Shown here piece by piece: positions 48,210 to 54,121 of a DNA stretch of 64,000 nucleotides. The notes beneath the pieces are model-generated. The model made no database searches. It saw only the letters and a program-made list of their open reading frames with translations, and was not told where the DNA came from. Origin of the DNA: Candidatus Dormiibacterota bacterium (GTDB lineage Bacteria > Chloroflexota > Dormibacteria > Aeolococcales > Aeolococcaceae). Position numbers and translations under genes: made by a program. Each line of letters begins with the position of its first letter. Position 1 is the stretch's first letter. Location of the stretch: the NCBI GenBank assembly GCA_035995545.1, contig DASYKI010000001.1, positions 902-64,901 of the forward strand, written 5' to 3'.

Positions 48210-48387
48210 AGCGAAGCCCGGTCGACAGTCCGCATTCGGGAATTACCCAACGGCTGTCCACAGGACTTGTGCGGAGCTTGGCGAGATTTCCCCAGATCAG
48301 GGCGCTGAACCGTTACCGACCATCGGCGTTGACAGGTTCCCTGAGCGCCGTAGGGGCCCGGTCAATCCAGGCCCGTGAACGCGGGGC

Positions 48388-49059
48388 TCAGCTCTCCCCG
48401 GCGGCCTCGCCCTCGGCGGCCGCTGCGGCGCCCTCGGCCGGCGTCTCCGCCTCGCCCTCGGCTGCGGCCTCGGCCTCCTCGCGGATGCGGACGGCGGCGA
48501 TCTTGACCACCACCTCGGCGTCCTCGGCGTGGACCAGCACCACCCCCTTGGGCAGGACGATCTCGCCCAGCGACAGCGACATGTCGACCTCGGTCAGGCC
48601 GCTGATGTCGACGGTGAGCTGAGCGGGCAGGTCCGCCGGCAGCGCCTCGACGCGCACGGTGGAGATGACCTGCTGGATCTGGCCGAGCTTGAGCGTCACC
48701 GCCGGCGACTCGCCGACGACGATGACGGGAACCTCGGAGGTGATCTTCTCGCGCAGGTTGACGGCGAACAGGTCGACGTGGATCGCCTTGCCGCTCTTGG
48801 GATTGATCTGCAGGTCCTTGATCAGGGCCTTGGGCGAGACCTTCTGGCCCTCGATGGAGATGTCGACGAGGTGGGTGCGCCCGGCCTTCTGCCAGGTCCG
48901 CTCCAGCTCCTTGGCGTCGACGGCGAGCGCCACCGGGGCCACCTTGTGGCCGTAGAGCACAGCCGGGACGGCGCCGGCGCGCCGCAGGGCGTGCACGTGG
49001 CGACCGGTCTCGGTGCGGGGGCGCGCGGTGAGCTTGATGCTGTCCATGGTGCGCGCCAT
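48388..49059 (-). CDS. rplY: 50S ribosomal protein L25 / general stress protein Ctc
   Basis: MARTMDSIKLTARPRTETGRHVHALRRAGAVPAVLYGHKVAPVALAVDAKEL... has the classic L25/Ctc N- and C-domains, with an acidic Ala/Glu tail. Confidence 0.9.
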   Translation of the reverse strand: MARTMDSIKLTARPRTETGRHVHALRRAGAVPAVLYGHKVAPVALAVDAKELERTWQKAGRTHLVDISIEGQKVSPKALIKDLQINPKSGKAIHVDLFAVNLREKITSEVPVIVVGESPAVTLKLGQIQQVISTVRVEALPADLPAQLTVDISGLTEVDMSLSLGEIVLPKGVVLVHAEDAEVVVKIAAVRIREEAEAAAEGEAETPAEGAAAAAEGEAAGES

Positions 49060-49097
49060 CCTACCCCCTGGTCGTCGATTGACGCTGGGATCGGCAG

Positions 49098-50006
49098 GTG
49101 CCACGCTCGGGCGCAGTGGGTTTCGGGTGCAGCGACGCGGTGGCCGTGCCGGGGAGCTCGCCCCCTCTGTGCGCCGGGCGTCAGGCCGGGCCGGTCGAGG
49201 GGGACACGCTCCTGTCGGTGAGCGTCCACCTGCGGGCGCGGCCGGACAGTCCCGGGCTGGGGTGGGTGAACCGGCAGGCATTGCGGGCGCCTGCGGAGCG
49301 GGTGGTGTTGACTCGTGCGCAGTTCGCGGAGCGGCATGGGGCGCTGGGGTCGGACGTCGACGAGGTGCGGGCCTGGCTGGAGGGGTGCGGGCTGCGTGTC
49401 GACGCGGTGCATCCGGGGCGGCGGCGGATCGTGGCGTCGGGGACGGCCTTGCTGATGCAGCGTGCTTTTGCGGTGGGGCTCTGTGTCCACCGCGGTGGGG
49501 GCGGCGAGGTGCATCTCGGGCGCAAGGGGGCGCTGGTTGTGCCGTCGGGGATTGCGCCCTTGCTGCGGGCGGTGCTGGGATTGGACGGGTGTCTGCGGGT
49601 GCGGTGGGACGATGGCCGCGCGTCGGCCGATTCCCTGGTGTGTGCGGTGGCGGCGCCGGGCGCGGCGAGCGAACGTGCGCTGGTGGATGCGGTGATCGAC
49701 ACCGTGCACGACCCGTCGCGGCGCGCTCTGTTGGTGGTGCTGGGGTTTGGGGCACCGGAGGCGGAGTGGTCGGTGCAGGGGATGCGGGTTGTCGAGCAGA
49801 CGCTGTTCGGGGCGGGGGCGATGGGGGTCAGCGTGGTGGCGGCTTGCCGGGAGGGTGAGCGGTGGTATCCTGCGTCGGCGCGGCATGCCATTGCGAGCGC
49901 GGCGGTGTGGGACGCCGCGGATGAGCTTGCTGCCGAGATACGGCGAACCGGGTATCCGCTGGGCGGAACGATCAGTGCCTTGGGAAGCGATTCTTCAGGG
50001 CTGTGA
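49098..50006 (+). CDS. hypothetical protein with sedolisin (S53) pro-domain-like region; no catalytic domain recognised
   Basis: LSVSVHLRARPDSPGLGWVNRQALRAPAERVVLTRAQFAERHGALGSDVDEVRAWLEGCGLRVDAVHPGRRRIVASGTALLMQRAF resembles the pro-kumamolisin activation domain. No SGTSxAxP motif follows. Confidence 0.35.
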   Translation: MPRSGAVGFGCSDAVAVPGSSPPLCAGRQAGPVEGDTLLSVSVHLRARPDSPGLGWVNRQALRAPAERVVLTRAQFAERHGALGSDVDEVRAWLEGCGLRVDAVHPGRRRIVASGTALLMQRAFAVGLCVHRGGGGEVHLGRKGALVVPSGIAPLLRAVLGLDGCLRVRWDDGRASADSLVCAVAAPGAASERALVDAVIDTVHDPSRRALLVVLGFGAPEAEWSVQGMRVVEQTLFGAGAMGVSVVAACREGERWYPASARHAIASAAVWDAADELAAEIRRTGYPLGGTISALGSDSSGL

Positions 50007-51566
50007 TTCCCGGGGACGCGGCCATCGGACGATCGCCGCGTCTCCCCAGCGAGCGACCACCTCGGTGCGGGCGCGGTGCACCCAGAGGATCACGGAGTTG
50101 CGCGGACGCACACGGTTGCTCATGAAGGCGTGCAGTGAGTTGGGGGTGCATTCGAAGAGCAGCATCGAGTTGTCGATCGGCGGAACGGCGACCGGGGCGT
50201 CAGAGGCTGTGCGGTGGAGGGCGACCTCGCCGCCGTCGCCGGGATGCCAGGGCCCGTTGCAGACGAAGAAGATCATCGCCACGCCACGAACCGTCTCGAT
50301 TGGCACAACGCCCGGCTGGGCGGCGATGCCGGTGAAGTAGTCGCACGCGGCGGAGGCGAGGAGCACCTCGTGGTCGGCCGCCGCGCGGGCGAAGAATCCC
50401 GGGTTGAGGTCGTTGTGCGGGCTGCCGGAGTGGCTGGCGGCGCCGTGGTGGTGGAGGCCGGCGAAGACGTGCCCGGTGCCGCGGACGCCGCAGACCGCGG
50501 CGACCAGGTCGTGCCACTCGCGCGAGCAGAAGAGCGACAGCGGCGCGCTCGTAGCGGCGTCGAAGGTGTGACTGAAGACGTCGTACCCGTTGCTGTTGCG
50601 GTCGAAGGCGCCGGGTCTAGTCAGCAGCTCGGCGTACGCAGCCTCGATGCGTGCGTAGACATCGGCCCGGAAGACGTCGTGCGCGACGACGTGCGGGAAG
50701 GGCTGCTCGCGGCGCACCCAGAGTCCGCCGGGCGTCAGCGCCTGCGCCAGTGGTGCGGCCGGTGCGGACGGGACTGCCGCGGCGCGCTGCCATCGCAGAT
50801 GGTCGTGCACCCAGCGCTCGCTCATGGTGTCGGCCTGGCGCCGCAGCTTGGGCGGGGAGACGCCTGCGTCGTCCTGTCCCTGCGCGATGCCGAGCTGGTC
50901 GAGGACGTGGCGCACGGTGGGCGCGTACTCGGCAACGAGATCCTCGTACACCACCTCGACAGGTGCGACGCCGCCAGCCGCGAAGAAGCCCCGCCAGCCG
51001 CGCTCGCCCTCGGCGAGAAGCTCCTGCAGCACCTCGATCTTCTCGAAGTCGGGATCCCATTGCTCGGCGGCATTCGCGGTGGAGTCGCCGTCCACCTGCC
51101 ACCACGCGTCACTGTCGAGGGCGCGCGCCCACGACACCGCCTGGCGCACCGTGTCGCGGCGGACGATGTGCACGAAGCGAGGCGCGGGCAGCATGGTGCG
51201 CAGCACGCCGGCGTCGCTGCCGCCGCGTCCGGACGCGCGACCGCGCGCGACGTAGCGCATGCAGTCGTGCCAGTGCACCTTCAGCGCGAACACGCCGTTG
51301 GCGGTGGTGCCCGCCCGCAGCATCCCGCGCGTGAAGTCGTCGACGTCGCCAGGCGCGACGCCCCAGTCCCGTGTGTAGCGCTGTTCCAGCTCCGGGCGCA
51401 GGTACTCGCGCGCGTGTCCCGCGACGCCGGTGCGGTCGAGCGCTTCGGCGAGCAACCAGCTGCCGGAGCGCGGCAGGCTGCAGATCACGATCGACGACGT
51501 CGCCTGGGCCGGAGCCGCAGCAGCAGCGGCGGCGGCGGCGAGCGGGTCGGTCGCCGATGCGGTCAC
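49995..51566 (-). CDS. Stf0-type sulfotransferase fused to a 2OG-Fe(II)-oxygenase-like domain
   Basis: The N-terminal roughly 270 aa reads ...SSIVICSLPRSGSWLLAEALDRTGVAGHAREYLRPE...VHIVRRDTVRQAVSWARA...RRQADTMSERW, which is a Stf0 sulfotransferase. It continues without a stop into about 250 aa carrying HNDLNPG...ALHRT double-stranded beta-helix motifs. A GTG start at 51566 overlaps the SDR stop by 4 nt. Confidence 0.65.
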   Translation of the reverse strand: MTASATDPLAAAAAAAAAPAQATSSIVICSLPRSGSWLLAEALDRTGVAGHAREYLRPELEQRYTRDWGVAPGDVDDFTRGMLRAGTTANGVFALKVHWHDCMRYVARGRASGRGGSDAGVLRTMLPAPRFVHIVRRDTVRQAVSWARALDSDAWWQVDGDSTANAAEQWDPDFEKIEVLQELLAEGERGWRGFFAAGGVAPVEVVYEDLVAEYAPTVRHVLDQLGIAQGQDDAGVSPPKLRRQADTMSERWVHDHLRWQRAAAVPSAPAAPLAQALTPGGLWVRREQPFPHVVAHDVFRADVYARIEAAYAELLTRPGAFDRNSNGYDVFSHTFDAATSAPLSLFCSREWHDLVAAVCGVRGTGHVFAGLHHHGAASHSGSPHNDLNPGFFARAAADHEVLLASAACDYFTGIAAQPGVVPIETVRGVAMIFFVCNGPWHPGDGGEVALHRTASDAPVAVPPIDNSMLLFECTPNSLHAFMSNRVRPRNSVILWVHRARTEVVARWGDAAIVRWPRPRESQP

Positions 51567-52315
51567 AGCACCCGCTCCCCGTCGACGTCGAGCACCACGA
51601 CCTGCCCGGTGGCGCCACCGCGGTCGAACTGCACGATGCGCGAGACGACGCGCTCGGTGGGGATCAGCCGGGGAAAGCCCGTCGGTGCCAGCGCGTTGAC
51701 GCGCACCCCCACGGGCGCATAGTCGAGGGCCATGTGTCGCGTCAGCGCGTTGAGCGCCGCCTTCGACGCCGCGTAGACGCCCTGACCGCCGGCGTACGTC
51801 TCCACGCCGGAGATGCTCGACAGGTTGACCACACTGCGGTTGCGGCGGCGGTTGCCGTCGGGCGAGTGCCGCCAGCACTGCCGAGCCACCTCGGCGGCCA
51901 GCCGCACAGGGGCAAGCGTGTTCACCGCCAGCTGGTGCAACGCGCCGTCGAGCACCTCCGAATTGGCCAGGGTGGACCCGAACTCGGCATGCGCCGCCGC
52001 GTTGACGACGAGGTCCACGGCGCCGAAGCGGGCCATGGCCAGCTCGACGACGCGCTCCACGCCGCCCGGCGCCACCAGGTCGGCCTGCACCGCGAAGACC
52101 GGGTGCGCGTTCTCCGGCGGCGGCACCTCCGGATGCAGCGGATCGAGGAAGGACTGCAGCTGCGAGGCCACCGGCGGCGGACGCTCGCGGTACACGGCGA
52201 CGACGTCGTAGTCGGCGGCGTGGGCGATGCAGAAGGCGGAGCCCAGGCGGCCACCGGCGCCGGTCAGCAGGCAGACGCGGCGGGAGTTGCCGGCGTTCCC
52301 CCTCGCGTCGCTCAC
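51563..52315 (-). CDS. SDR-family oxidoreductase
   Basis: The Rossmann motif LLTGAGGRLGSAF and the catalytic YAASK. Confidence 0.85.
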   Translation of the reverse strand: MSDARGNAGNSRRVCLLTGAGGRLGSAFCIAHAADYDVVAVYRERPPPVASQLQSFLDPLHPEVPPPENAHPVFAVQADLVAPGGVERVVELAMARFGAVDLVVNAAAHAEFGSTLANSEVLDGALHQLAVNTLAPVRLAAEVARQCWRHSPDGNRRRNRSVVNLSSISGVETYAGGQGVYAASKAALNALTRHMALDYAPVGVRVNALAPTGFPRLIPTERVVSRIVQFDRGGATGQVVVLDVDGERVL

Positions 52316-52340
52316 ACCGGAACTCTAGTCCCGGCGCGGG

Positions 52341-52775
52341 TCAGGCCGTGGCCTTCTCCCCGAAGCGCTTGCGCACGAAGTCGACGGCCTCGTCGAGCGA
52401 CGTGCCCGGGGTGAACACCTTCTCCACGCCCATGTCGTTCAGGGTCCTTACGTCGTCCTCGGGGATGATGCCGCCGCCGAAGACGACGATGTCCTCGGCG
52501 CCCCGCTCGCGCAGCAGGCGGAGGATCTCCGGGAAGAGGGTCATGTGGGCGCCGCTGAGGATGCTGATGCCGACGCCGTCGACGTCCTCCTGGATGGCGG
52601 TCTCCACCACCATCTCGGGCGTCTGGTGCAGCCCGGTGTAGATCACCTCGACGCCGGCGTCGCGCAGGGCGCGGGAGATGACCTTGATGCCGCGGTCGTG
52701 CCCGTCGAGGCCCACCTTGGCGGTGAGGATGCGGATCTTGCGGCCCGACCCCCCGGACGATTCAGCTGCGCTCAT
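52341..52775 (-). CDS. cobalamin (B12)-binding domain protein (methylmalonyl-CoA-mutase small-subunit-like)
   Basis: [18 protein letters not shown] is the DxHxxG B12-binding motif, with a Rossmann-like body. Confidence 0.9.
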
Positions 52776-53556
52776 GGCCCGGCGATTCTATCGTCGTGGG
52801 CCGGGCGGACCGCGGGTGGTCCTGCGCCTGGGGCAGCCTGGAGCGCGCCAGGGCGGCGAGCTGCTCGGCGATGACGTGGACGCGCTCGGGGGTGCCGGCG
52901 AGCCACGAGGTGTCGCCCTGCCCGCCGCTGCGCGCCCCCGCAAGGGAGCCGGCCAGGGCGGTGGCGACGCTGAGCTCCTCGCCGTAGGCGGCCAGCTCCT
53001 CGAGCACGTCGGGAACGGTCTCGGCGCGGTGCAGCGCGGTGATGGCGATCTGCAGGGCGGCGCCGGGGTCGCTGTCGCCGCGCAGGGGCTCGCTGTCGTC
53101 GAGGGGCTGGAGGCGGTGGAGCAGGGCCAGCGGGGCCTCTTCGAGCAGGGTCTGATGGAGGCGGGCGAGGCACCAGCCGAGGTCGAAGCGGAGCAGGTCG
53201 GCGGCCAGCACGGCGGCGGCGACGGCGGTCATCGCGGTGCCCTCGTCGGCGCCGGCGAGGCGGGCGCTGCGGTGGGCGCTCCGCCGCAGCAGGGGGCGGT
53301 CGGCGGGGCTGGCCAGGCCGTAGGCGACGGCGCGCAGGGTCAGGCCGGCGAGGCCGGGTGCGGGAAGCTGGTCGAGCCCGCGGGCCGTCAGGTCGTCGGG
53401 GTCGTAGGCGCCGGCGTGGGCGAGGGATTCGGCCGCGCTGAGCAGCTGGGCGGTGCCCGCGGTCGTGCCGGAGCGGCGCTCGCCCGCCACGGCACCGGCC
53501 AGGGCGGCGAGGATGCGGCCCTCGAGGTCGTCGACGACGTATTCCACGTCGGGCAA
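52762..53556 (-). CDS. hypothetical protein
   Basis: A coherent 264 aa ORF overlapping the downstream B12-binding gene by 14 nt; no recognisable family. Confidence 0.4.
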
Positions 53557-54121
53557 CGCTATCCTTTCGAGCCGTGTCGGCGTCCACCTCGGCGAGCAGT
53601 GCGGTGATGCGGGCGCTCCGGCGCAGCGCGCCGGGGCTCACTCGCGCGGTGGTGGGCACGCTGCTCGATCCGCAGCGTCGGCGTGCGGTGGCGGCGGTGC
53701 TGGCGCGGATGGATGGTGTCGACGCACCCGCGGTGGTGGGGGCGTCGCGACATCCGATGGCGCCGGCGGCGGTGCGGGTGGAGCGGACGCGGTCTCGGCG
53801 CCGGCGCGGGGGGGAGGATGAGCAGGTCGCCGTGACGGTGTGGTTTGGGGAGGGGCCCTCGTTGCCGGGCGGGAGTCGGTTCGCCCGCGGGGCGACGCGC
53901 GTGGGAGCGGGGATGCTCAGCGCGGCGGCCGTCGCGGCCGGGACGGCGCTGGTGGCGCGGTTGTCGGAACGTCCGTCGACGCCGCGGGTCGTTGACGAGC
54001 CGGCGCGCCCGGCGGCCCTACGCTCCGGGACGCCCGCTCCCTGAGGGCTTGAGCGTCCGGACCGCCACGTTCTTTGCGCAGCCTGTGCGCGGGCGGAGTT
54101 TCGGGGGCGCCCCGCGCGGAT

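What the first reader, a model, noticed from the sequence alone, without database searches (positions are those of the whole stretch)
49995..52315. Stf0-family sulfotransferase fused in-frame to a 2OG-Fe(II) oxygenase-like domain, in an operon with an SDR
The 523-codon gene, with a GTG start at 51566 that overlaps the upstream SDR stop by 4 nt, has a complete Stf0-like sulfotransferase. Stf0 is the trehalose-2-sulfotransferase family in mycobacteria (established knowledge). The sulfotransferase ends around RRQADTMSERW and runs without a stop into about 250 aa with double-stranded beta-helix oxygenase motifs (HNDLN ... ALHRT). The window also encodes otsA-otsB, so trehalose is made here. A sulfotransferase-oxygenase fusion next to a dehydrogenase suggests a small pathway for a sulfated and hydroxylated (or desulfated) metabolite. 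The same region could instead be two translationally coupled genes if an internal start (MSERW) is used.
Basis: partly seen in the sequence, partly recalled or inferred. Interest (0 to 1): 0.6.

Follow-up and report, generated by a model that had tools for sequence, protein, structure and literature searches.

The report
Sulfotransferase-oxygenase fusion enzyme with partner dehydrogenase
One real gene in this uncultured soil bacterium joins a sulfate-adding enzyme to an iron/2-oxoglutarate oxygenase and always sits beside its own dehydrogenase; this three-enzyme module is conserved and uncharacterised, its substrate is unknown, and it is probably not the trehalose-sulfating enzyme of mycobacteria.

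Summary
Window 49995-51566 (-) is a single 523-codon ORF whose GTG start overlaps the stop of the upstream SDR gene (GTGA). Residues 21-261 are a complete Stf0-family PAPS sulfotransferase. Residues 282-516 are a prolyl-hydroxylase-like 2OG/Fe(II) oxygenase (here called OXY) with an intact H384-x-D386...H479...R489 set.

The fusion is not an assembly artefact. About 35 full-length homologues (32-81% identity) keep one frame. Both domain trees place the fusions in three well-supported clades, separated by branches that are mostly weak.

The wider unit is an OXY-SDR gene pair: 75 of 77 loci from eight or more phyla have it. The sulfotransferase is an add-on present in about 40% of loci, either fused, adjacent or one gene away. 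It often comes with further oxygenases (DUF6445-like, JmjC), methyltransferases and glycosyltransferases.

The oxygenase-linked sulfotransferases lie outside a moderately supported group holding mycobacterial Stf0. They also score far below NCBI's trehalose-2-sulfotransferase cut-off, and otsA/otsB lie 18 kb away. The trehalose link is therefore unsupported.

The genome can make PAPS. My best reading, which is inferred and not shown, is C-H hydroxylation or oxidation plus O-sulfation of one shared acceptor, with an SDR redox step.

I found no literature on this architecture. The scan has not noted it before on other DNA.

The parts
49995..51566 (-). Fusion gene, 523 codons plus stop: Stf0-family sulfotransferase joined to a P4H-like 2OG/Fe(II) oxygenase
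   Evidence: About 35 full-length homologues keep a single frame.
50784..51506 (-). Sulfotransferase domain (STF), residues 21-261
   Evidence: PF09037 E 4.7e-33. Profile hit to PDB 1tex E 7.8e-36. Foldseek 1tex E 3.4e-13. My own HMM scores 330 bits.
51459..51473 (-). 5'-phosphosulfate-binding loop P32-R-S-G-S36, with Arg in place of the usual Lys as in Stf0
   Evidence: P32, R33, G35 and S36 are invariant in 29 fusions. Coordinates checked. The role of the Arg in Stf0 is taken from PMC11625862.
51405..51407 (-). E54, which aligns with the Glu of 'GEPQEFF' in Stf0 (the proposed catalytic base)
   Evidence: Invariant and aligned to 1tex. That this Glu is the base in Stf0 is from memory of the Stf0 structure paper and was not re-read here.
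51132..51161 (-). 3'-phosphate-binding motif R135-R-D-x-x-x-Q-A-x-S145
   Evidence: R136, Q142, A143 and S145 are invariant. Coordinates checked.
50724..50783 (-). Inter-domain linker, residues 262-281 (Ala/Pro-rich)
   Evidence: Its length varies from about 20 to about 70 residues among homologues. pLDDT is 60-83 in this stretch.
50019..50723 (-). Oxygenase domain (OXY), residues 282-516, double-stranded beta-helix
   Evidence: PF13640 27.8 bits. OGFOD1 profile hit. Foldseek hits to PolD, OGFOD1, PasI, PPHD and PHD2. My own HMM scores 341 bits.
50445..50453 (-). H372-H373-H374 run on the strand before the metal site; role unknown, possibly contacts an anionic substrate or 2OG
   Evidence: H372 and H374 are present in 85/85 and H373 in 82/85 family members, with or without a sulfotransferase.
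50409..50417 (-). H384-N-D386, the HxD part of the iron-binding facial triad
   Evidence: H and D are present in 85/85. Coordinates checked.
50130..50132 (-). H479, the distal iron ligand (in FECTPNSLHAF)
   Evidence: Present in 85/85. Lies on strand 478-481 of the model.
50100..50102 (-). R489, ten residues after the distal His (R-N-S): the expected binder of the 2OG C5 carboxylate
   Evidence: Present in 85/85. The H-x10-R-x-S pattern of P4H-type enzymes is established knowledge.
51563..52315 (-). Partner SDR (250 aa), translationally coupled to the fusion gene
   Evidence: PF00106 84 bits. It is 45-64% identical to the SDRs next to seven other modules, with N132, S166, Y181, K185 and the TGAGGRLG motif conserved. 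My SDRp HMM scores 405 bits.
51563..51566 (-). GTGA: the start of the fusion gene overlaps the stop of the SDR gene

Best explanation
Shown: this is a cytoplasmic bifunctional enzyme. Its N-terminal half is a PAPS-dependent sulfotransferase of the Stf0 fold. Its C-terminal half is an active-looking prolyl-hydroxylase-type Fe(II)/2-oxoglutarate oxygenase. It works with a dedicated classical SDR encoded just upstream. The conserved core of the system is the oxygenase-SDR pair, which occurs in many phyla. The sulfotransferase is an accessory third activity that has repeatedly been placed next to the oxygenase or fused to it.

Inferred mechanism: the oxygenase hydroxylates or oxidises a C-H position of an unidentified acceptor. 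The SDR carries out an NAD(P)-dependent redox step on the same molecule, either oxidising the new alcohol or reducing a ketone made by the oxygenase. The sulfotransferase then puts sulfate from PAPS on the newly made hydroxyl or a neighbouring one. Fusion keeps the two active sites on one acceptor.

The acceptor is more likely a small molecule or a sugar-containing compound than trehalose itself or a ribosomal peptide.
For: Fusion real and selected: about 35 single-frame homologues at 32-81% identity.

Both active sites intact: PRSGS, E54 and RRDxxxQAxS in the sulfotransferase; HxD...H...R present in 85/85 oxygenase domains.

Folds: Stf0 (1tex) and the PolD/OGFOD1/PHD group. The AF2 model has pLDDT 84.9.

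Partner SDR: adjacent to the oxygenase in 75 of 77 loci and orthologous throughout.

Functional coupling of sulfotransferase and oxygenase: an STF gene lies within the locus for 35 of 85 oxygenase copies. Fusions fall in three well-supported clades in both the OXY tree and the STF tree, and the two trees show the same clades, so the partners have diversified together. Related Stf0 domains are also fused to two other oxygenase families, JmjC/Cupin_8 and DUF6445. That fits an oxygenase making the acceptor hydroxyl.

PAPS supply: ATP sulfurylase, APS/PAPS reductase and APS kinase are clustered on contig 9 of the same genome. One fused locus (L013) carries an APS-kinase ORF next to the module.

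Sugar-type acceptor: the only characterised PF09037 member acts on a disaccharide. Nine loci carry a GT2 gene, in part fused to a second Stf0 domain. The Mesorhizobium loti DSM 2626 operon reads JmjC - methyltransferase - Stf0 - OXY - SDR - GT4.
Against: No substrate or product is known for any member, so the order of the steps is inference only.

Five cultured genomes carry OXY-SDR but have no Stf0 homologue at all. Sulfation is therefore not intrinsic to the core chemistry.

No neighbour besides the SDR is universal, and glycosyltransferases appear in only a minority of loci.

The closest oxygenase folds include protein prolyl hydroxylases as well as small-molecule enzymes, with nearly equal scores.

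A pTM of 0.57 means the model says nothing about how the two domains face each other.

The trees are quick-search trees with SH-aLRT support only.
Confidence: 0.5

Rival explanations
1. Sulfate as a transient handle or leaving group. The sulfotransferase first sulfates an existing alcohol. The oxygenase then acts on the sulfated intermediate in one of two ways: it recognises the anionic group, or it hydroxylates the ester carbon so that sulfate leaves and a carbonyl forms (AtsK-type chemistry). The SDR then reduces that carbonyl. The net result is oxidation, inversion or substitution, and the final product carries no sulfate.
For: The oxygenase family has an invariant basic cluster (H372, H374, R427, H497, mostly R498) that could hold an anion. 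Its best small-molecule structural matches, PolD and PasI, were solved with a 2'-phosphorylated nucleoside-sugar ligand according to the PDB titles. An oxygenase followed by a reductase fits a carbonyl intermediate, and the SDR is nearly always the gene after the oxygenase: 71 of 85 copies.
Against: The basic cluster is just as conserved in oxygenases from genomes without any Stf0 homologue, so it does not point to sulfate. There is no similarity to the TauD/AtsK family, PF02668. Spending PAPS only to remove the sulfate again is costly. Nothing here separates this step order from the other.
Confidence: 0.17
2. The acceptor is a protein or peptide. The P4H-like domain hydroxylates a side chain (for example proline) of a cellular or secreted protein, and the sulfotransferase sulfates the new hydroxyl. 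This would be a hydroxylation-dependent sulfation mark.
For: Structural neighbours include OGFOD1/Tpa1, Pseudomonas PPHD (solved in complex with EF-Tu) and PHD2, plus an OGFOD1 profile hit. Related Stf0 domains are fused to JmjC/Cupin_8 hydroxylases and to a radical-SAM/SPASM enzyme, both typical protein or peptide modifiers. About ten actinobacterial loci place OXY-SDR inside type VII secretion loci, and a Methylobacterium plasmid places it directly after a type I secretion operon.
Against: A dedicated SDR has no obvious role on a protein side chain, yet it is the most conserved partner. No conserved small ORF that could be a precursor peptide flanks the modules. The secretion-system contexts are lineage-specific.
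Confidence: 0.13
3. One reading: a trehalose-2-sulfate pathway variant, in which the Stf0 domain sulfates trehalose made by the window's OtsA/OtsB and the oxygenase and SDR tailor it further.
For: The Stf0 fold and catalytic motifs are present. otsA and otsB are in the window. The genome makes PAPS.
Against: The protein scores 111.8 bits against the 400-bit cut-off of the trehalose 2-sulfotransferase equivalog. It is 25-26% identical to Stf0 in the structural alignment. In the STF tree, Stf0 sits in a moderately supported group (SH-aLRT 93; its own branch is long) with stand-alone enzymes, and every oxygenase-linked sulfotransferase lies outside that group. otsAB is 18-20 kb away, beyond a pilus operon, and is absent from every homologous locus examined.
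Confidence: 0.07
4. Artefact: two separate genes joined by an assembly or sequencing indel, or two proteins made from an internal start at M249.
For: The window protein's Pfam score for the oxygenase is marginal. Reads could not be inspected.
Against: Single-frame fusions occur in independent assemblies from JGI, ENA, NCBI and Logan, down to 32% identity and in three clades. M249 is not conserved and lies inside the Stf0 fold. The linker varies in length but never contains a stop.
Confidence: 0.02

Closest known systems
Stf0 trehalose 2-sulfotransferase of Mycobacterium (PDB 1tex; PF09037; NCBIfam NF047724)
   Same: Same fold. Same PAPS-binding loop with Arg, same 3'-phosphate motif, and the aligned Glu.
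   Different: Only 25-26% identical in the structural alignment. Far below the equivalog cut-off. Falls outside the moderately supported tree group that holds Stf0. Carries a C-terminal oxygenase and has a partner SDR, and no sulfolipid genes were seen nearby.
Prolyl-4-hydroxylase-type 2OG oxygenases: OGFOD1/Tpa1, Pseudomonas PPHD, PHD2
   Same: Double-stranded beta-helix fold, HxD...H triad, and Arg ten residues after the distal His.
   Different: 11-16% identity. Has its own invariant motifs (LHHH, HNDLNPG, FECTPxSxH). Is paired with an SDR. The substrate is unknown and need not be a protein.
PolD (Streptomyces cacaoi) and PasI (Photorhabdus asymbiotica), 2OG oxygenases of nucleoside-sugar antibiotic pathways (PDB 9blq, 9ei6, 9ei7)
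   Same: The best small-molecule structural matches (E 1.5e-9; target-normalised TM 0.64-0.74). According to the PDB titles they act on an anionic (phosphorylated) sugar derivative.
   Different: 13-17% identity. No nucleoside-antibiotic genes occur around the module. Their function comes from PDB titles only and was not tested here.
Separate hydroxylase and sulfotransferase pairs in natural-product pathways (for example CyrI/CyrJ of cylindrospermopsin), and the oxygenase-reductase pair KanJ/KanK of kanamycin (both recalled from memory)
   Same: The same kind of logic: an Fe/2OG oxygenase combined with a sulfotransferase, or with a reductase, tailoring one scaffold.
   Different: Those are separate proteins from other subfamilies inside large biosynthetic clusters. 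Here the two activities are in one polypeptide and the module stands alone. No sequence comparison was made.
AtsK-type 2OG-dependent alkylsulfatase (TauD family, PF02668; from memory)
   Same: An Fe/2OG enzyme whose chemistry involves a sulfate ester.
   Different: No similarity to PF02668. It belongs to a different oxygenase subfamily.

Membership tests
Stf0-family sulfotransferase (PF09037) | Profile match over the curated cut-off and across the whole domain | tested here: met
   115.2 bits against a cut-off of 22; profile positions 2-239 of 244.
Stf0-family sulfotransferase (PF09037) | PAPS-binding elements: 5'-PSB loop with Arg, and the 3'-PB motif with Ser | tested here: met
   P32-R-S-G-S36 and R136, Q142, S145 are invariant in 29 fusions. 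The roles of these motifs are taken from PMC11625862.
Stf0-family sulfotransferase (PF09037) | Stf0 three-dimensional fold | tested here: met
   1tex chains are the top four Foldseek hits, E 3.4e-13, target-normalised TM 0.68-0.73.
Trehalose 2-sulfotransferase (NCBIfam NF047724 equivalog) | Score over the equivalog cut-off | tested here: not met
   111.8 bits against a cut-off of 400.
Trehalose 2-sulfotransferase (NCBIfam NF047724 equivalog) | Groups with characterised Stf0 in a tree | tested here: not met
   1tex sits in a 16-row group of stand-alone enzymes (SH-aLRT 93). All oxygenase-linked STFs lie outside it. This is a quick tree and the 1tex branch is long.
Trehalose 2-sulfotransferase (NCBIfam NF047724 equivalog) | Sulfates trehalose at O-2 | not testable with these tools
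   Needs an enzyme assay.
2OG/Fe(II) oxygenase, P4H-like (PF13640 / PF13661) | Profile match over the curated cut-off | tested here: inconclusive
   PF13640 scores 27.8 against 27 (just met). PF13661 scores 25.4 against 27 (just missed). Homologues carry both annotations.
2OG/Fe(II) oxygenase, P4H-like (PF13640 / PF13661) | HxD/E...H iron triad and a basic residue for the 2OG C5 carboxylate | tested here: met
   H384, D386, H479 and R489 are each present in 85/85.
2OG/Fe(II) oxygenase, P4H-like (PF13640 / PF13661) | Double-stranded beta-helix fold | tested here: met
   Foldseek probability 1.0 to PolD, OGFOD1, PPHD, PHD2 and Tpa1. The strand pattern of residues 366-499 in the model fits.
2OG/Fe(II) oxygenase, P4H-like (PF13640 / PF13661) | 2OG-dependent turnover | not testable with these tools
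   Needs an enzyme assay.
Classical SDR (PF00106), the partner gene | Gly-rich cofactor motif and the N-S-Y-K catalytic tetrad | tested here: met
   TGAGGRLG, N132, S166, Y181 and K185 are conserved in eight partner SDRs. PF00106 scores 84.3 bits.
TauD/AtsK sulfate-ester dioxygenase (PF02668) | Profile match | tested here: not met
   No PF02668 hit at E up to 1.
RiPP tailoring system | A conserved precursor-peptide ORF beside the enzymes | tested here: not met
   No conserved 25-110 aa ORF lies within 1.5 kb of the modules. The only large cluster was low-complexity noise.

The most novel reading that the evidence does not exclude
The module marks a macromolecule, not a metabolite. The P4H-like half hydroxylates a protein or cell-envelope component and the fused Stf0 half sulfates that new hydroxyl. 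This would be a hydroxylation-dependent O-sulfation not described in bacteria, possibly acting on secreted substrates, since some relatives sit in type VII or type I secretion loci.
Probability: 0.12. Interest if true: 0.75.

Novelty: new variant of a known kind. Interest (0 to 1): 0.47.

Why it matters
Bacterial sulfotransferases with known acceptors are few, and in the family tree I built every sulfotransferase linked to an oxygenase is uncharacterised.

A recurrent fusion of a sulfotransferase to an oxygenase is Rosetta-stone evidence that the two act on one acceptor. It suggests a general rule: an oxygenase makes the hydroxyl and Stf0-type enzymes sulfate it. The same rule would cover the JmjC-Stf0 and DUF6445-Stf0 fusions found here.

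The oxygenase-SDR pair is a widespread two-gene module with no assigned function. It is present in cultured, tractable organisms: Nocardia brasiliensis, Streptomyces, Kitasatospora, Sorangium, Chondromyces, Bradyrhizobium, Mesorhizobium loti, Microvirga and Hamadaea. The question can therefore be tested directly by knockout metabolomics.

The result also corrects a likely annotation error. These proteins are labelled 'LPS sulfotransferase NodH' or 'trehalose 2-sulfotransferase' in public sources, with no support for either name.

Tried and rejected
1. Internal start at M249, giving two coupled genes. Rejected: the Met is not conserved and lies inside the Stf0 C-terminal helix.
2. 'ALHRT' as the distal-His motif. 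Rejected: the position is mostly Tyr. H479 is the invariant His.
3. Reverse-order (oxygenase-then-sulfotransferase) fusions among the representative hits. They turned out to be tandem Stf0-Stf0(-Stf0) proteins.
4. An apparent OXY-SDR fusion (P0208). It is a frameshifted gene call: the sequence between the two domains is garbled.
5. Universal third partner. Clustering of neighbours in 82 loci found nothing beyond OXY-SDR. My first count of a 'GT34-like' gene in 11 loci was an artefact of overlapping ORFs, and the true count is 4.
6. Precursor-peptide search: nothing conserved.
7. Residues separating sulfotransferase-linked from sulfotransferase-free oxygenases. No clean discriminating column; the differences track one large clade.
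8. Anti-phage defence role. PADLOC gave only a generic '2OG' accessory hit for the fusion and nothing for the SDR. The dynamin-like/HSP70 neighbours seen in some loci are absent near the fusion in this genome.
9. Plasmid collection: one distant hit (Methylobacterium oryzae). It was informative only for context.
10. Literature. No paper mentions DUF6445, none describes a Stf0-oxygenase fusion, and the M. loti KpsS paper is not in the library.
12. Promoter and terminator scan of 48300-54000: nothing relevant on the minus strand.

Full report
WHAT IS THERE

Window 49995-51566 (-) is one open frame of 523 codons. Its GTG start shares the four bases GTGA with the stop of the upstream 250-codon SDR gene, 51563-52315. 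A B12-binding mutase small-subunit gene lies 25 bp further upstream, but it is not found next to homologous modules.

Pfam places a complete Stf0 sulfotransferase at residues 26-254 (E 4.7e-33). It places a marginal 2OG-FeII_Oxy_3 match at residues 427-497, 27.8 bits against a cut-off of 27.

IS THE FUSION REAL?

A word-indexed search of 5.8 billion proteins returned about 30 proteins that cover 94-99% of the query at 32-81% identity. They come from JGI, ENA, NCBI and Logan assemblies.

In the alignment of 29 of them the two halves are joined by a linker of variable length (about 20-70 residues) that never contains a stop. It lies in the helix that aligns with the C-terminal helix of the solved Stf0 structure.

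The artefact and two-gene readings are therefore rejected.

ARE BOTH HALVES LIKELY ACTIVE?

Sulfotransferase half. The PAPS loop P32-R-S-G-S36, the 3'-phosphate motif R136...Q142-A-x-S145, and E54 are invariant. E54 aligns with the Glu of GEPQEFF in Stf0.

Oxygenase half. H384-x-D386, H479 and R489 (ten residues after the distal His, followed by N-S) are present in 85 of 85 family members.

Structure. The AF2 model (pLDDT 84.9, pTM 0.57) shows two well-folded domains with an uncertain mutual orientation. Foldseek matches the first domain to Stf0 (1tex, E 3.4e-13). It matches the second to PolD, OGFOD1, PasI, Pseudomonas P4H, PHD2 and Tpa1, all at probability 1.0. A profile search of PDB sequences agrees: 1tex at 7.8e-36 and OGFOD1 at 0.002.

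PAPS supply. The genome encodes ATP sulfurylase, APS/PAPS reductase and APS kinase side by side on contig 9, so PAPS is available.

THE REAL UNIT IS LARGER THAN THE FUSION

In five metagenomic contexts the fusion always has an SDR next to it: upstream in Dormibacterota, downstream in Acidimicrobiales-type contigs. These SDRs are 45-64% identical to the window's SDR and share a specific set of invariant residues.

A scan of one genome per species returned 79 loci. I annotated them with HMMs built from the two domains and the SDR. Among the 77 non-redundant loci analysed, which include the window and five metagenomic contexts, 75 have the partner SDR directly beside an oxygenase. It follows the oxygenase in 71 of 85 oxygenase copies.

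The carriers span Actinomycetota, Acidobacteriota, Pseudomonadota, Myxococcota, Melainabacteria, Verrucomicrobiota, Vulcanimicrobiota and Dormibacterota. They include cultured strains of Nocardia, Streptomyces, Kitasatospora, Nocardioides, Sorangium, Chondromyces, Bradyrhizobium, Mesorhizobium, Microvirga and Hamadaea.

The sulfotransferase is present in the locus for 35 of 85 oxygenase copies. Of these, 15 are fused. The other 20 are adjacent, or separated by one gene or more (up to about 2.6 kb away). Five cultured genomes that carry OXY-SDR alone have no Stf0 homologue anywhere. The own genome served as the positive control for that search.

So oxygenase plus SDR is the core, and the sulfotransferase is an add-on.

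EVIDENCE THAT SULFOTRANSFERASE AND OXYGENASE WORK TOGETHER

In the oxygenase tree the fusions fall in three well-supported clades:
- window + L001 + L004, support 99;
- a 16-row Acidimicrobiales/Solirubrobacterales clade, support 100;
- L013 with its relatives, support 100.

The well-supported branches force at least three changes of the 'fused' label. The sulfotransferase tree recovers the same three clades, and also the same non-fused groups (for example Hamadaea/Microvirga/L073/L074). The two partners have therefore diversified together. Both are quick trees with SH-aLRT support only and are unrooted, so the direction of change (fusion or fission) is open.

Related Stf0 domains are also fused to two other oxygenase families, JmjC/Cupin_8 (P0037) and DUF6445 (P0040, P0059). 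Others are fused to GT2 (P0043, L070) and to a radical-SAM/SPASM enzyme (P0082).

Accessory genes near the modules are mostly further oxygenases:
- a DUF6445-like gene in 13 loci;
- an unassigned 418-aa protein in 8 loci, with an H-x-D and a later His (by eye);
- JmjC in 5 loci;
- a second OXY copy in about 8 loci;
- GT2 in 9 loci.

The Mesorhizobium loti DSM 2626 operon reads JmjC - methyltransferase - Stf0 - OXY - SDR - GT4.

NOT A TREHALOSE SULFOTRANSFERASE BY ANY TEST AVAILABLE

The protein reaches 111.8 bits against the 400-bit cut-off of NCBI's equivalog. It is 25-26% identical to Stf0 in the structural alignment. It lies outside a 16-row group (SH-aLRT 93) that contains Stf0 and the stand-alone Stf0-like genes of other Dormibacterota.

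otsA and otsB exist in the window but are 18-20 kb away. They do not accompany the module elsewhere.

HOW COMMON IS IT?

In a sample of 151 genomes of the same phylum, only this genome and one same-family genome carry the fusion. Eleven others have only stand-alone Stf0-like genes.

In a library of 1.84 billion 50%-identity representatives, about six to nine clusters are full fusions, out of 2,080 hits to either domain at E <= 1e-30.

The module often sits in accessory DNA: next to conjugation genes (L006-L008), next to transposases (L009, L060), and on a Methylobacterium plasmid.

MECHANISM

Shown: two intact catalytic domains in one chain; a dedicated SDR; PAPS supply in the genome; strong genomic coupling of sulfotransferase and oxygenase.

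Inferred: the oxygenase creates or oxidises a hydroxyl-bearing position, the SDR does a redox step on the same molecule, and the Stf0 half sulfates it.

The main alternative is the opposite order, with sulfate as a transient handle or leaving group. The data here cannot separate the two. A protein acceptor is possible from the fold neighbours, but it does not explain the ever-present SDR. No precursor-peptide ORF is conserved.

LITERATURE AND EARLIER NOTES

No paper in the library mentions DUF6445 or a Stf0-oxygenase fusion.

Earlier notes of this scan gave the phylum assignment. They also gave the neighbouring orphan pro-kumamolisin prodomain gene, which I confirmed by Pfam. None of them covered this module.

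VERDICT

This is a real, conserved and undescribed domain architecture built from two known enzyme families. It is embedded in a widespread, uncharacterised oxygenase-SDR module. The product is unknown and the trehalose link is unsupported. Interest is moderate.

Noticed in passing
L024, L028, L029, L034, L037, L039, L040, L052, L076, L090 (for example L040 3-2554 and L034 1980-3233): In about ten actinobacterial genomes the oxygenase-SDR pair sits inside a type VII secretion locus. EccB and a WXG100 protein lie upstream and an S8 mycosin-like protease directly downstream.
   Followed up: partly
L001 11126-16564; L004 4584-9946; parts in L003, L006, L009: A trio of dynamin-like protein, HSP70 and dynamin-like protein lies next to the module in several loci. 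The dynamin-like proteins give weak LeoA/LeoBC matches in PADLOC. The trio is not near the fusion in this genome.
   Followed up: partly
L095 (Methylobacterium oryzae plasmid NZ_CP090352) 1-10420: An unannotated oxygenase homologue (32% identity) and its SDR follow directly after a type I secretion operon with a large calcium-binding protein.
   Followed up: no
P0087 (749 aa), P0089 (1332 aa), P0092, P0093, P0119, P0136: Proteins made of two or three tandem Stf0 domains, that is, multi-sulfotransferase chains.
   Followed up: no
L065, L071, L072 (3516-6708), L075; P0035, P0094, P0096, P0098: Within the large fused clade, some loci instead have a Stf0 protein with a long unassigned C-terminal extension, plus an oxygenase with an unassigned N-terminal domain of about 300 aa. 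That domain is conserved at 44% identity between P0035 and L072. No Pfam match.
   Followed up: partly
L032, L048, L067, L073, L074 (for example L067 6668-7438): A conserved 250-aa DUF6445-like gene lies between the Stf0 gene and the oxygenase gene. A tetrapyrrole-methylase-fold gene lies upstream in L030, L046, L048, L067 and L074.
   Followed up: partly
window 49098-50006 (+): An orphan pro-kumamolisin activation-domain protein with no peptidase domain (PF09286, E 1.8e-11). It converges on the fusion gene and overlaps its last 12 bases. A relative lies near the module in L001. Strong positive GC skew over 49000-50000.
   Followed up: partly
window 52341-53556 (-): A stand-alone B12-binding methylmalonyl-CoA-mutase small-subunit gene (TIGR00640, E 3.7e-52) lies 25 bp upstream of the SDR. 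Before it is a weak ADP-ribosylglycohydrolase-like ORF that overlaps it. Neither is conserved next to the module elsewhere.
   Followed up: no
L013 1498-3432: An ORF containing an APS kinase lies just upstream of one fused module. It was the only PAPS-synthesis gene found beside any of the loci.
   Followed up: no
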